NCBI RefSeq assembly: GCF_011045215.1
Contig: NZ_CP049201.1
DNA length: 64,000 nucleotides
DNA from: Escherichia coli
GTDB taxonomy: Bacteria; Pseudomonadota; Gammaproteobacteria; Enterobacterales; Enterobacteriaceae
Reading direction: 5' to 3' (one strand)
Shown piece by piece: positions 3,001 through 9,000 of this stretch. Every line of letters starts with the position of its first letter. The stretch's first letter is position 1. The position numbers are program-made.

Positions 3001-6000
3001 TCGCTATGCTATTTGAACGTTTTGACCATGTGGCTCAGGTAGCTAATATCAAAAGACGTCATTTTGTCTCCACGCCCACCTTGGTGAATATTCAATAAAT
3101 AGTTTCGGTCGAGAGCAGTTATGTAGGGCTAGCAGACGAGATGCGCAGACATCTTGTTGAAGACAATTTTACTGACCACCTGAGAACGCTATTTTACCGA
3201 ATAATATTTATTATCTTGGCGAATAATGATGATTACCTGTGTAACTATGGTTTTATGCTGATGGGACCGGCAGTACAATTTCTGTAGTGTACTCGCAATT
3301 TCAGATCTCTGGCGTTTATTCTGGTGCAAAGGAGGTATGTGATGAAAACTTTGCTACCATGCCATTAAATGCGACCAATATCGGATTATACATCAGTTGC
3401 TTGTTGTAGATTTCATTGGTTATAAAAATGCAAGGTGTAAAAGATGAAATTTATAATTATTAGTTAAGTGGCTAGTTTTATAGTAATTTAGACAATAGGA
3501 TGTATGGAAAAATGGGAAAAGTTTATGATACCACTAGAATTAGTAATCTTGCTAACGACCCGAAACAGTTTTGTTCTTTTTTTTGTGAGTACATAAAAAG
3601 AGATGATATTAGTATAGATATCGCCTTGGATGTGCTGAGAATATCTTCCATCTATTATAATAGATTTTCAGTTCAGACTGAAGTTGAGTATAACAATACA
3701 TTCAAAAAATGTATTAATGAGCTAGTAAACTCATTTCCTGATAACATTGAACTAATCTCTGAGTTCGAGAGTCAATGTAAAATTATGCATGATATAAATA
3801 ATTCTTTCTTTGCGGCTACAAAATGTGCTGGTATTTGGCGTAAAAATACAAAAAAATCACATGCATTAATACTTAATCTCATCATGTTTTGTGAGATGTT
3901 TTTATCATCATTATCATCCTTGGTTGTGGTCAATGATCCTAAAAAAATGAAGAGGATTTTTCCATTATTTATCGTTTCTAAAATATTAATATTCATGCTG
4001 AACCTGATATCGAATATTTTCGAGTTATCGATAGGGCATTTGATGAGGTAGCCAATTACACCGGAAGAATATTTTCTTATTTACGGACTCATGGGCCATT
4101 GAAACTAACTTCTTGTGTGAATAAACAAACCTTGCTTTCAATGGGAGGGTACCTTAATGAGTGGAATGTTTTTGACTCATTAAGCAGAGTAAGAGACTTT
4201 TTCAGACTAAGTAGTGCAGTATTTACAAAATTGGATAATAACATTTACTCTCTTGAGGTTGATAGTTTTTGTTTATACCGAGATTATGAGATTGCAAGAA
4301 ATAGACTAATGATGAGAGCGTCACATCTATATAGCGAAGTTCATGAATTTAGTAACAAACATTTTCATCTAAATAGTTGGGTAAAGGATCATATGCCATC
4401 TTACTTAAATTCTGATGGCGTTTTTAGCTCATTTCATCTAAGCGAGTTGGAAAATATGTCTCCTGATGACCTTCATGAAGAATATGGGAATATATCATTA
4501 TTTAATTGGGTGCACGCTTATCAATGTTTAGTCGAGTTATCTAAAGAAGAAATGAGAAAAAGATTTTCATCGACAAAACCTATACCCCTACAGTTGGATC
4601 GCTGGCTGATCATAAAAAGCCGTGAGAGTTGGTTATCATTCTTTCAACGTAAGGGGATTGCAGCAGATGCAGCAAAAAAACTGATAGATTATTTTACCTT
4701 CAATTCAAAATCACATGATCTTAATGATTGCCCATTTATTCCCTGTATGGACGGTTTATGCTTAATGCCTGCATTAATAGCAAATAGCTCAGTGACTCGC
4801 TCTCTAATGTCATTATTTGGTTCCAAAAAAATTTCTCAAGCAAGTAAAGGGCGATTTCATGAGCAACAATTTATAAAACAAGTTCGTGATGCGGGGATTA
4901 AAGCTTCTCCAATTGATGCTCATGCTAATTATCAGTGCGATTGCGTGATTCTCCTGGATGATTGTTTGATTTTTACAGAACTAAAATCAAATGGTCAACC
5001 AATATATTATGGTAAGTACTATCAGCAAGTGTGTAACATCGTTGGAGATAGCTCATTAATACATGATCATAATAATAAATTTATGCGTTCTTATTTTCAA
5101 CAAATAAATCGAATTTCTGAACATTATCTTAATCATCTTGATGTGATCATTAAAGAATTCGAACTACCATCAACATGGCAACCCAAAGGTGTGTATAAGC
5201 TTATTGTTACTACAACTATGCTCGGTGGAAAATATCATGTGGATGATACATATGTAGCGGACAAATATGCATTATCTAGTTTTTTTCAACGAATACCTGG
5301 AGTGATATATCAAACAAATGAAAATGGAAAAATGGCGAAAAATATCATTGATGGGTTTGAGTGTTGCGAAGGGGAAATCACTATCGATAAGTTTATAGAT
5401 TATCTTTCCTCTTTGCCCAGTATTAATGCTGTACGTAAAAATATAAAAAAATTAACTTATAGTGTTCGATTTAATGAAAAATTAGTCCATCACCCTTATT
5501 ATGATTCTTGGGCTTTTGGTCCATATATTCGTAAGGGAAATGATTAGAGCAATTTATTATATAGTCCATGTTATTCACTGATTATATTATTGATAAAATA
5601 ATCAGTGAATAACTCTAATTTTTTAATGTTGGGGTTTAGCCTGAAATTGAAATTGGTACTACGGAACGGTATGATCATATCGCATCAAAATATCAAGGTA
5701 GTGATGATTTTCTACGCAACGATCCAGAAGCGTGGATTTTATCATCACCATAAGCAATGGCAGCGACAACACCATCAATTTCTATATCAAAGGTGGTGAA
5801 ATGAATTAGAAAATTGTTTATTTAATCCATTAGCGATAAGTTTTATTGTTATTTAGCCGAGATATATTCCATTGAAAAAAGTAAATTGGCACTGATATTA
5901 TATCAAATGGGAATAATCCTTTTGTAAATAAGCTGAGGAATGTGTTAATTCATATCCAGCGCCTTATAAACCGCATCAACCGGTTATGAGTAAAAACTTA

Positions 6001-9000
6001 CCTGAAACTTGGTAAACAACTCTGCCGGAACTGTTGGAATATCCATAGCCCAGGATATCGGTAACAGAACTCGTTTTGCGCCGCTATCGAAGGCGAGTTG
6101 TAAACTAGCGGCAAGATCCTGCACTGATTATGTCAGCAATATTGAACATACTGCGATAGTTATCAACCTCACCCCCTAAAAACCTCATTCCGATGCCACT
6201 CCACAAACCCCTCATAAGGGTAATTTTTACGCACCTGCGGCAACGCAATAGTTTTCCCGTCAAAATCCCAGAATAATCTCTCAACGATCCCTCCGCCGTT
6301 TACCGCATCTGATACCAGTACCCGCATATTTTCGTCCAGGCCAATCGATCCTTTATCAAAGGCTTTATGGTGAATTGCGCAAAGCGCCAGGCCATTAGGA
6401 ATTTCACAAGGACCGCCGTGCTGTTTCCATTTTATATGCGCCGCTTCCAGCGCGACGGTGGTGTCGTCGTGGCGCATATTAAAGCCACATATCGCGCACT
6501 GGTAGTTATAAGCGCGTAATACATTTTTGCGAAATAACGGGTCGCGCTGTTTACGGATTTGCTGGAGATCAAAACCCAGCTCGTCAGCAATTTCTTCCTG
6601 AATACTCTCGGTGAAGTGCGCTTCGAGTATCTGTTGCGCCAGAGTATTGATGAGTTTTTTATTGCCTGTTACCAGGGCGTAGTGCTGTTCATCGAAACCG
6701 CCTGCAACGTGGTATTCGTTCAGTTCCTTCACTGGCGGTTGTCGGCTGCTACCTGCTGTTGAGCAAAGCTCGGCATTGTGTAATTGCCAGAATCCGTCGC
6801 CTTGTAATCGCCAGAACGGCATATCAGGTCGGTACTGTGAACGCTGTGGCCCAAAACGTTCCAGTAAATTGTGCAGAGGTTCGTAGATTTCCGATCCATA
6901 ATCGAAAAGGCGCGGATGCCCATTCAGGTATCCCGCTAATACGTATAGCAGTAACAATGGTTTATGCGGCGCGCGCTGTTCACCCTTGTGCCAGATTTTT
7001 ATATTGGCAATTGCCTGCTGTAGCGATTTACTGGAAGCCATTGATATCCCTGGCAGTGAAATAATTGCGATCATGCTCGCAAATTTTCTGCTGTTCAAGC
7101 CTGCAAGTGAAGATATATTACCTTGATCTCATTTGTTTTTTTGCTGCTTGTTCTGAGAACGTATAAGGACATTCTCCATGAATAAACTCCCCGATCATCT
7201 TCCTCGGCGGTATATCATCAAAGCTATTCATTTATGGGATGCGGGAGAAACTCATCAGTTCCAGCCTGCACGGTTGTATGAGATTGAATATCATGGCCGA
7301 CGTTACCCCTCGAAGGCGATTGCTGGCATCGCAGCGACATTGATGACGGGGACGCAATTTACCCCTGCGGATTTCACCGGCGGAATAAAATCTAAATGCG
7401 TCAAGCTACTTATAGATCAGGGATTTCATATTCATCAGGATAAAGCCGCTGCGGCTCCCATAGCCGATGTTCTGTTCCCGGATGAGTTGCCGTCGCAGGG
7501 GACCTACGTTGAAGGTGCGGCGATAAAGGTGACGGTAAACCGCTATGAACGAGATAAAAAAGCTCGCGAGAAAGCAGTCGAACATCACGGATGCCAGTGC
7601 AACGTATGCGGCGTTGATCTGGTGAAGATCTATGGCGATATCGCTGAGGGTTTTATCCATATGCATCACCTGGTGCCGCTTTCAGCCATTAAAGAGGATT
7701 ACCAGCTGGATCCAGTTAATGATTTACTTCCTGTGTGCCCTAATTGCCATGCGATGTTGCACCGACGCAAACCACCGTTTACGCCGGAGGAGTTAAAAGC
7801 GCTGATGGATGCGAATAAATCAAATTAATGAACGCTCACCTTTCGCGCCAAAACTGCAAAATTGCTTCTACAAACTTGTCAGAAATAATCCCCCGACGGG
7901 CTGCCGCGCTGAAATGACTGCTTCGCAGTGCCGTCGTCCAGTTCTCCGGTGACCGGTACGCTGAACCGTAATATCCCGTGCTTAAATCGTCCGGATCTTC
8001 ATCAGGCGCGTTCGTCAGTCCTCTTTCACCTTGTTGCTGGAAGTCGACGAAAATAATATTGGCTAAAACATTATTTTGATAATTGCCATAAATAGCTTCA
8101 TACGCATGAGGGAAATTTTCTTTCCAGTACCAGGTGGTATCGCCGCAAAACCACGGCGCATCAGTAATATTATTAAGCTGAGAATGGTATTGTTTTAGAT
8201 CCCTACGAAAGGCTTCAACCATATGATTAAAGTGTTGAGGGTGTGACGCGTAGTCACTGGTCATTAAGTCAAATTCGCCTTGCATCCAGCATACGCCGAG
8301 GAATTTGTTCTGCGGATTTTTTGCCAGTGCGGCTCGCGTTCTGCTGACTAAATCCTGGTACAGCGGAGTATCCGTTCCCCAACGACAAGCATCATGGCTG
8401 GCTCCGTGCCGTTCTGAATATGTCCCCTCGCTGCCAGCGGTAAAAGCCGATCCGCCACGGCAACACGGAACGATGAGAACCCCTGCGTTATCAGGAATAA
8501 AGGGCAGTAATTTCCGTGCAATATGCAGTGCCTGGCCAACGGTGCCGTACTGTGTTTGATGATTCGTTGCCAGAGGATGGTGATAACCCTGCATATCCTG
8601 AACATCGTGTGGGCAGTGAGTCAGTGGAATAATGTCGTTAAAGTGACATGACGGGCCTCCGGGATGCGTATGCGCAAATCTCGCTAATTGTTTAATTCTG
8701 GGATGAGGCGCATCTTCCCTGTCCGGTAATGGCAGTCCTTCGCCATACGCCATAGCATTAGACTGACCAGCAACGGTAAGAACAAAGTAATAATCAGGCG
8801 ATATTATTGCGTTCATATAAATTTCGCGTAATTGAAATGACAAATTGATAGCAGGGCCCCTTTACTGGGGCCCTGAAGCGTTAGTTTTGTACTGTGGCTT
8901 TATTATCCTTCACAGAGATCAAAACTGAATCCGTCACCGCTTTGCCGCCTGCAGTTTCACCGCCAATAATCAATAGGCTATTATTCCAGGGCAATGATAC

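What the first reader, a model, noticed from the sequence alone, without database searches (positions are those of the whole stretch)
5800..6168. Non-coding ~370-bp stretch with core-like GC between the low-GC block and the HNH gene
Seen in sequence: no ORF of 60 aa or more except one short plus-strand ORF, yet the GC content rises relative to the AT-rich block on its left. Inference: this may be a decayed gene remnant marking the island/core junction.
Basis: inference. Interest (0 to 1): 0.2.

Follow-up and report, generated by a model that had tools for sequence, protein, structure and literature searches.

The report
Leftover stub of a deleted BREX system
This stretch is dead wreckage from a phage-defence (BREX) gene cluster that an ancestor of this E. 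coli lost in a roughly 14-kb deletion; it is an ordinary pseudogene scar that public genome annotations already flag.

Summary
Window 5800-6168 is non-coding today, but it is not anonymous spacer. On the minus strand, 5945-6124 is the last 59 codons plus stop of brxL, the final gene of a type I BREX system (NCBIfam TIGR02653 positions 617-675 of 675, E=6e-23; 55/60 residues identical to an intact E. coli BrxL). A further 35 nt of brxL (6125-6159) follows a 57-nt internal deletion. The stub carries two in-frame stop codons. To its left lie the old brxL-downstream spacer (5847-5944) and the first 62 codons of the PLD-like gene that follows brxL in BREX-bearing strains (5662-5846). That gene fragment has lost its start codon and has two frameshifts. 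At 6159/6160 brxL is fused to the 9 nt after the stop codon of the HNH gene, which is annotated as a phosphorothioate-DNA-dependent restriction endonuclease. Compared with syntenic strains such as UTME-13, 14,435 bp are missing: most of brxL, then pglZ, pglX, brxC, brxB, brxA and a membrane-protein gene. About 360 complete E. coli genomes share the scar. All six copies examined have the same junction, and their substitutions look neutral. "Island/core junction" is wrong, because K-12 homology resumes only at nanS (7833). The GC rise is confined to 5940-6124. Ordinary; low interest.

The parts
5662..5846 (-). 5' remnant (first 62 codons) of the PLD-like gene that lies just downstream of brxL in BREX-bearing E. 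coli. The start codon is ATG->ATA and there are two frameshifts. It is truncated at 5662, where the low-GC insert begins.
   Evidence: tblastn of the UTME-13 PLD-like protein: aa 1-16, 21-37 and 37-62 match in three different minus frames at 5846-5799, 5788-5738 and 5739-5662. DNA homology to L003 19702-20185 is 84.7%. The intact protein has its PLDc_2 domain at aa 71-142, beyond the remnant.
5847..5944 (.). Former intergenic spacer between the brxL stop codon and the PLD-like gene start. It is 19 bp shorter than in UTME-13 and AT-rich (5800-5939 is 25.7% GC).
   Evidence: Alignment A1; composition.
5945..6124 (-). brxL 3' remnant: the last 59 codons plus the original TAA stop (5945-5947).
   Evidence: TIGR02653 BrxL positions 617-675/675, E=6.1e-23, 81 bits against a 628-bit cutoff. 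PADLOC BrxL E=1.8e-18. 55/60 identical to UTME-13 BrxL aa 636-695. PGAP pseudogene at the same coordinates in other genomes.
5984..5986 (-). In-frame nonsense codon (GAA->TAA) inside the brxL remnant. It is shared with strain ARS-C101 and absent from four other scar copies.
   Evidence: Translations and alignment.
6125..6159 (-). A further 35 nt of brxL (about aa 605-616, IAVCSILLT*S against the intact IALCSILLAKP), joined to the main remnant by a 57-nt in-frame deletion between imperfect 11-nt direct repeats (CCAGTACAGGA / CCGGTGCAGGA). It contains a second in-frame stop (AAA->TAA, 6128-6130) present in all six scar copies examined.
   Evidence: 28/35 identity to L003 20243-20277, exactly 57 nt beyond the end of the main homology; 0 of 2000 shuffles reach 28, the best being 23. 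Translations.
6159..6160 (.). Deletion joint (+/- 2 nt): brxL codon ~605 is fused to the sequence 9 nt downstream of the restriction-endonuclease stop codon. Relative to UTME-13, 14,435 bp are missing (the 5' 1.8 kb of brxL, pglZ, pglX, brxC, brxB, brxA and a PDC-S11 membrane-protein gene).
   Evidence: blastn: window 6160-7151 = L003 34713-35704 at 98.0%, and window 5662-6124 = L003 19702-20185. Sequence reads. Size. The joint is identical in all six scar genomes compared.
6160..6168 (-). The 9 nt of original 3' flank of the phosphorothioate-DNA-dependent HNH restriction endonuclease gene (stop TGA at 6169-6171; the true CDS is 6169-7041, 290 aa).

Best explanation
The interval is a non-functional deletion scar inside the leuX-anchored variable (defence) region of E. 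coli. An ancestor carried, on the minus strand, PLD-like gene <- brxL <- pglZ <- pglX <- brxC <- brxB <- brxA. A membrane-protein gene came next, followed by the phosphorothioate-dependent HNH endonuclease, a second HNH gene and nanS/nanM/nanC. One deletion of about 14.4 kb removed everything from brxL codon ~605 to 9 nt past the endonuclease stop codon, destroying BREX. A separate replacement brought in the low-GC block and cut the PLD-like gene after codon 62. What remains is two gene stubs and their old spacer, and it is drifting neutrally: nonsense codons, frameshifts, a lost start codon and a 57-nt slippage deletion. Shown here: the homologies, the joints, the synteny with intact loci, and the shared junction in the copies compared. 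Inferred: the order of events, the single origin, and the absence of any present function.
For: BrxL C-terminal match. A second piece of brxL lies 57 nt further in, and 0 of 2000 shuffles match as well. The PLD-like 5' stub is spread over three frames. Syntenic loci in UTME-13 and 2015C-3101 have the complete BREX-1 operon between the same flanks, in the same order and orientation. No other BREX gene occurs anywhere in the 64-kb window. All six scar genomes compared share the same joint, 57-nt deletion and AAA->TAA stop. 360 of 5426 complete genomes carry the scar at 95-99% identity, and 383 carry a full-length homologue at 90-95%, annotated brxL or S16 family serine protease. In the brxL tail, intact alleles differ by 9 synonymous and 0 non-synonymous changes. 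Scar copies differ by 3 synonymous and 8 non-synonymous or nonsense events over 51 and 159 sites, a ratio of about 0.85, close to neutral. PGAP calls the stretch a partial pseudogene. A truncated internal gene fragment cannot be the precursor of a whole operon, so the direction of change is loss.
Against: The scar's brxL allele is only 90-92% identical in DNA to any full-length brxL homologue in the complete-genome collection, whereas the right flank is 98% identical. The true ancestor was therefore not UTME-13-like on the BREX side and is not sampled. The joint shows only weak microhomology (GCGATA/GCGGTA) and a 1-nt ambiguity, so the deletion mechanism is not established. Absence of function is inferred from sequence alone; no expression data were available. 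The substitution counts are small (11 events).
Confidence: 0.92

Rival explanations
1. The stub arose by replacement rather than by simple deletion. A recombination event brought the HNH endonuclease side in from another strain, with one crossover inside brxL, overwriting BREX. The outcome is the same scar with a different history.
For: Identity to BREX-bearing strains is unequal on the two sides: 84.7-92% on the left and 98% on the right. The locus is highly mosaic. ARS-C101 has the same scar but a different left flank starting right after the brxL stop, and L001 has a different right flank with Zorya II.
Against: In BREX-bearing strains the endonuclease already lies on the brxA side in the same orientation. 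A single intrachromosomal deletion therefore explains both edges without any import.
Confidence: 0.15
2. The tract has been co-opted as a 3' untranslated region, terminator or small RNA for the convergent or adjacent genes. One example would be carrying the 3' end of the endonuclease transcript, whose original downstream region was deleted.
For: The deletion left only 9 nt of the endonuclease gene's native 3' flank, so its transcript must end within the relic tract or beyond it. The tract is retained in about 360 genomes.
Against: No terminator-like site was found in 5400-6300 on either strand. Rfam gave no hit in the interval; the only matches were sub-threshold microRNA-model hits on a hairpin at 5563-5620. 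The RNA fold of 5930-6175 (minus strand) is not exceptional (z = -1.82, 10 of 200 shuffles fold as well). Retention is explained by the small size of the tract and by linkage.
Confidence: 0.05
3. One of the short ORFs (46 aa, 5984..6124 minus; 56 aa, 6009..6179 plus) encodes a functional small protein.
For: The ORFs exist.
Against: The 46-aa ORF exists only because of a lineage-specific nonsense mutation; other scar copies read through to the old brxL stop. The ratio of non-synonymous to synonymous changes is about 1. The plus-strand ORF is antisense to a known coding frame, and no family in any library matches it.
Confidence: 0.02
4. One reading: the remnant marks the boundary between a horizontally acquired island and the conserved core chromosome.
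For: GC does step up near 5940, and a real breakpoint of the low-GC insert lies nearby at 5661/5662.
Against: The sequence to the right (two HNH genes, 6169-7828) is itself variable. K-12 has only two decayed fragments of it, and continuous homology begins at 7833 in nanS. Other strains have BREX or Zorya II in this position.
Confidence: 0.05

Closest known systems
brxL (protease Lon-related BREX system protein BrxL, TIGR02653), last gene of type I BREX operons (Goldfarb et al. 2015, as cited in PMC10121019)
   Same: The C-terminal 59 residues align end to end with the family model (positions 617-675/675) and are 92% identical to E. coli BrxL proteins. A further 11 codons upstream also match. 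The chromosomal position and orientation are the same as intact brxL in syntenic strains.
   Different: Only about 10% of the gene is left. It has two in-frame stops and a 19-codon deletion, no ATPase domain and no partner BREX genes. It cannot act as BrxL.
Partial pseudogenes annotated by PGAP at the same site in RefSeq E. coli genomes (e.g. Eco28_RS23545, ECP_RS23535, ACL656_RS20435)
   Same: It is the same sequence at 97-98.7% identity, with the same coordinates relative to the endonuclease gene.
   Different: PGAP labels it only 'peptidase' or 'hypothetical protein, missing N-terminus'. It does not name brxL, does not include the extra 35 nt, and does not annotate the PLD-like stub.
The leuX-anchored hypervariable island of E. 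coli and Salmonella (Bishop et al. 2005 as cited in PMC9009780; Salmonella StySA BREX lies at leuX)
   Same: It is the same anchoring tRNA and the same kind of cargo (BREX, restriction enzymes, toxin-antitoxin genes), with mosaic turnover of modules.
   Different: PMC9009780 places the well-studied E. coli BREX at thrW. Here the evidence is for a BREX at the leuX-nanS region in some E. coli strains and its loss in others. I infer, but did not verify, that this is hotspot #37 of PMC10121019 (BREX, AbiEii, Zorya and P4-like satellites at a tRNA).

Membership tests
BrxL (TIGR02653 / PADLOC BrxL) | Sequence match to the family model | tested here: met
   E=6.1e-23 over model positions 617-675/675; PADLOC E=1.8e-18. 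This is homology of the C-terminal tail only.
BrxL (TIGR02653 / PADLOC BrxL) | Full-length protein (~680-695 aa) reaching the curated whole-protein cutoff | tested here: not met
   81 bits against a cutoff of 628.25. Only aa ~605-616 and 636-694 of a 694-aa homologue are represented.
BrxL (TIGR02653 / PADLOC BrxL) | Open reading frame intact | tested here: not met
   In-frame TAA at 5984-5986 and at 6128-6130, a 57-nt internal deletion, and no start codon or N-terminus.
Type I BREX system | Presence of brxA, brxB, brxC, pglX and pglZ next to brxL | tested here: not met
   tblastn of all UTME-13/2015C-3101 BREX proteins against the whole 64-kb window finds only the brxL tail. The genes are present at the syntenic site in other strains.
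PLD-like nuclease gene (PF13091 PLDc_2) | PLD domain present | tested here: not met
   The intact homologue has the domain at aa 71-142. The window keeps only codons 1-62, with a lost start codon and two frameshifts.
Known structured RNA / intrinsic terminator | Rfam family match at gathering score, or a GC-rich hairpin plus T run | tested here: not met
   No Rfam hit inside 5662-6168. No terminator-like site there. Fold z-score -1.82.
Island/core junction | The sequence on one side is conserved in a reference strain lacking the island | tested here: not met
   K-12 MG1655 homology begins at window 7833 (98.1%). Only two decayed fragments map to 6774-7201.

The most novel reading that the evidence does not exclude
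The relic tract is not inert. After the deletion removed the endonuclease gene's native 3' region, the brxL/PLD-like stubs may have been kept as its new 3' UTR or transcription stop. Alternatively, the identical junction in hundreds of genomes could reflect a recurrent, sequence-directed excision of the BREX cassette rather than one ancient accident.
Probability: 0.04. Interest if true: 0.35.

Novelty: already known. Interest (0 to 1): 0.08.

Why it matters
It matters little beyond annotation hygiene. It shows that this strain's lineage once carried a type I BREX system next to its phosphorothioate-dependent restriction enzyme and lost it. That is a small, concrete example of defence-system turnover at the leuX hotspot. 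The scar, with its fixed junction and 57-nt deletion, could serve as a lineage marker for this locus allele. RefSeq's 'peptidase' pseudogene label could be sharpened to 'brxL, C-terminal fragment'.

Tried and rejected
Pfam gave no hit for the 60-aa translation; the fragment is too short for Lon_C-type models, while NCBIfam and PADLOC succeeded. ARAGORN found no tRNA in 1-12000, and only a 3' fragment of leuX of about 24 nt survives at 2800-2822. The Rfam E-value scan of 5400-6400 returned only sub-threshold microRNA-model hits on an AT-rich hairpin outside the interval. The promoter and terminator scan found nothing above shuffle expectation: 8 promoter-like sites against 5.7 +/- 2.3 expected, and no terminator in the tract. 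The RNA fold was not exceptional. I first took 6125-6159 for foreign 'filler' at the joint, because MAFFT misaligned it. An ungapped scan showed it is brxL sequence displaced by a 57-nt deletion. A literature search for a description of this particular scar found none. PMC10121019 does not name its hotspot #37 in the text I could read, so equating it with leuX stays an inference.
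Full report
**Context**

The window is E. coli chromosome from the variable region between tRNA-Leu (leuX) and nanS-nanM-nanC-fimB. 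Megablast of 5560-6200 hits 985 of 5426 complete E. coli genomes, 339 of them over at least 80% of the query, with a best identity of 98.6%. In those genomes the gene order is ahr, tRNA-Leu, a 678-aa low-GC hypothetical gene, a short pseudogene, and a 'phosphorothioated DNA-binding restriction endonuclease'. Its true CDS is 6169-7041, 290 aa, 98% identical to the UTME-13 protein, with a Pfam HNH_2 domain.

**Checking the observation**

- **ORFs.** No ORF of 60 aa or more lies in 5800-6168. The longest are 59, 56 and 46 aa.
- **GC content.** The interval as a whole is 36.3% GC, but it is heterogeneous:

| Segment | GC |
|---|---|
| 5800-5939 | 25.7% |
| 5940-6124 | 44.9% |
| 6125-6168 | 34.1% |
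| Low-GC gene on the left | 32.7% |
| Endonuclease (HNH) gene | 48.5% |

**What the interval is**

- **brxL tail.** One minus-strand frame reads SVQDLAASLQLAFDSGAKRVLLPISWAMDIPTVPAELFTKFQVSFYS*PVDAVYKALDMN*. It matches NCBIfam TIGR02653, 'protease Lon-related BREX system protein BrxL', over the final 59 model positions (617-675 of 675; E=6.1e-23; 81 bits against a full-length cutoff of 628). It also matches the PADLOC BrxL model (E=1.8e-18). Pfam gives nothing for so short a piece. PGAP annotates the same 180 nt in other genomes as a pseudogene 'peptidase' or 'hypothetical protein; incomplete; missing N-terminus'.
- **Distribution.** A blastn search with 5930-6168 splits E. coli into two groups. 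In 360 genomes the whole piece is present at 95-99% identity; this is the scar. In 383 genomes only query positions ~8-16 to 192-195 match, at 90-95%, and the match lies inside a full-length gene annotated brxL (or, in some records, S16 family serine protease).

**Synteny with intact loci**

In strains UTME-13 and 2015C-3101 the same chromosomal site holds the following genes:

- tRNA-Leu, an integrase fragment, AbiEi/AbiEii, an IS3 fragment and a PLD-like gene (minus strand);
- the complete BREX-1 operon brxL-pglZ-pglX-brxC-brxB-brxA (minus strand);
- a membrane-protein gene (PADLOC PDC-S11);
- the same phosphorothioate-dependent endonuclease, an HNH pseudogene, and nanS/nanM/nanC.

Pairwise blastn gives window 5662-6124 = L003 19702-20185 (84.7%) and window 6160-7151 = L003 34713-35704 (98.0%).

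**The right-hand joint**

The 35 nt between those two blocks (6125-6159) looked at first like filler. An ungapped scan shows they match brxL at L003 20243-20277 (28/35 identical), exactly 57 nt beyond the end of the main homology. None of 2000 shuffles reached 28; the best was 23. At protein level this piece reads IAVCSILLT*S against the intact IALCSILLAKP. The missing 19 codons (VQEQMVVLGSMTLGGVINP) are bounded by the imperfect direct repeats CCAGTACAGGA and CCGGTGCAGGA, which is typical of slippage.

The brxL remnant is therefore 5945-6159. It is fused at 6159/6160 to the 9 nt that follow the endonuclease stop codon. Relative to UTME-13, 14,435 bp are absent. tblastn with all the BREX proteins finds nothing else in the 64-kb window.

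**The left-hand side**

Homology to the BREX-bearing locus does not stop at the brxL stop codon (5945-5947). It continues through the old spacer (5847-5944, 19 bp shorter than in UTME-13). It then runs into the first 62 codons of the PLD-like gene, whose pieces (aa 1-16, 21-37, 37-62) now lie in three different frames and whose start codon is ATA. The intact protein's PLDc_2 domain (aa 71-142) lies beyond the truncation at 5662, where the low-GC block begins.

**Evidence for decay and a common origin**

- **Shared features.** The window, DSM 103246, 536, O145 RM12275, SC418 and ARS-C101 all share the same joint, the same 57-nt deletion and the AAA->TAA stop at 6128-6130.
- **Second stop.** The TAA at 5984-5986 (GAA in other scars, GAC in intact genes) is shared only with ARS-C101.
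- **Substitution pattern.** In the brxL tail, two intact alleles differ by 9 synonymous and 0 non-synonymous changes. Among scar copies I count 3 synonymous and 8 non-synonymous or nonsense events over about 51 and 159 sites, a ratio near 0.85. The numbers are small, but the contrast is what a pseudogene predicts.
- **Direction of change.** A fragment from the interior and end of a gene cannot be the ancestor of an operon, so the change is loss of BREX.

**Is it an island/core junction?**

No. Against K-12 MG1655, continuous homology starts at window 7833 in nanS (98.1%). K-12 retains only two decayed, unannotated fragments of the endonuclease region (window 6774-7021 at 89.5% and 7082-7201 at 85.8%). 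Other strains carry BREX or type II Zorya here. The literature describes the leuX-anchored region as hypervariable in E. coli and Salmonella, and places Salmonella's StySA BREX there (PMC9009780). PMC10121019 reports BREX, AbiEii, Zorya and P4-like satellites at a tRNA hotspot it numbers #37. That this hotspot is leuX is my inference, not something the text I could read states.

**Tests for residual function**

- No terminator-like site lies in the tract, and promoter-like matches are at the level expected from shuffles.
- No Rfam family matches inside the tract.
- The minus-strand RNA fold of 5930-6175 has a z-score of -1.82.

I conclude the tract is inert. This is an inference from sequence alone.

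**Verdict**

The stretch is a real but ordinary feature: a BREX deletion scar made of a brxL 3' stub, a PLD-like 5' stub and their spacer. It is already flagged as a pseudogene in RefSeq. Interest is low.

Noticed in passing
window 3500-5547: The 678-aa low-GC hypothetical gene is intact in DSM 103246, 536 and others and has no Pfam or PADLOC match. In the window a 1-nt deletion near 3980 splits it into 183-aa and 482-aa ORFs, so it is probably a fresh pseudogene here.
   Followed up: partly
window 2800-2822 and 1-2821: Only the last ~24 nt of tRNA-Leu (leuX) are present (ARAGORN finds no tRNA). Everything to the left matches the end of a DUF262/DUF3696-carrying island seen in IAI1 and ETEC strains, so this looks like an attR-type repeat at the right end of a leuX-inserted element. 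No complete genome in the collection has both halves joined as they are in the window.
   Followed up: partly
window 6774-7021 and 7082-7201 (K-12 NC_000913.3 ~4536268-4536620): K-12 MG1655 keeps unannotated, decayed fragments (89.5% and 85.8% identity) of the phosphorothioate-dependent endonuclease region between yjhR and nanS.
   Followed up: no
window 5570-5613: An AT-rich inverted repeat (21-nt arms, 95% complementary, 2-nt loop) followed by a T run lies just after the stop codon of the low-GC gene. It is a plausible terminator, although it fails the GC-rich-stem criterion. It draws sub-threshold Rfam microRNA-model hits on both strands.
   Followed up: partly
window 7178-7828: The second HNH endonuclease gene (216 aa) is intact here and in ARS-C101. 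In UTME-13, 2015C-3101 and 536 it is reduced to a 105-nt pseudogene, and window 7152-7722 has no counterpart in those strains.
   Followed up: no
L009 (NZ_CP132979.1, ARS-C101) 141-3000: This strain has the same brxL scar, including the TAA at the window-5984 position. Its left flank differs, however, starting immediately after the brxL stop codon with a DNA cytosine methyltransferase plus a hypothetical gene. The brxL stop is therefore a recurrent module boundary.
   Followed up: partly
L001 (NZ_CP019944.1) 8551-13695: In DSM 103246 and ZF8-1 the scar and endonuclease are followed by a nanM fragment and a type II Zorya system (zorA2 is interrupted by ISKpn26 in DSM 103246) instead of HNH-nanS. 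This is another sign of mosaic turnover at the locus.
   Followed up: no
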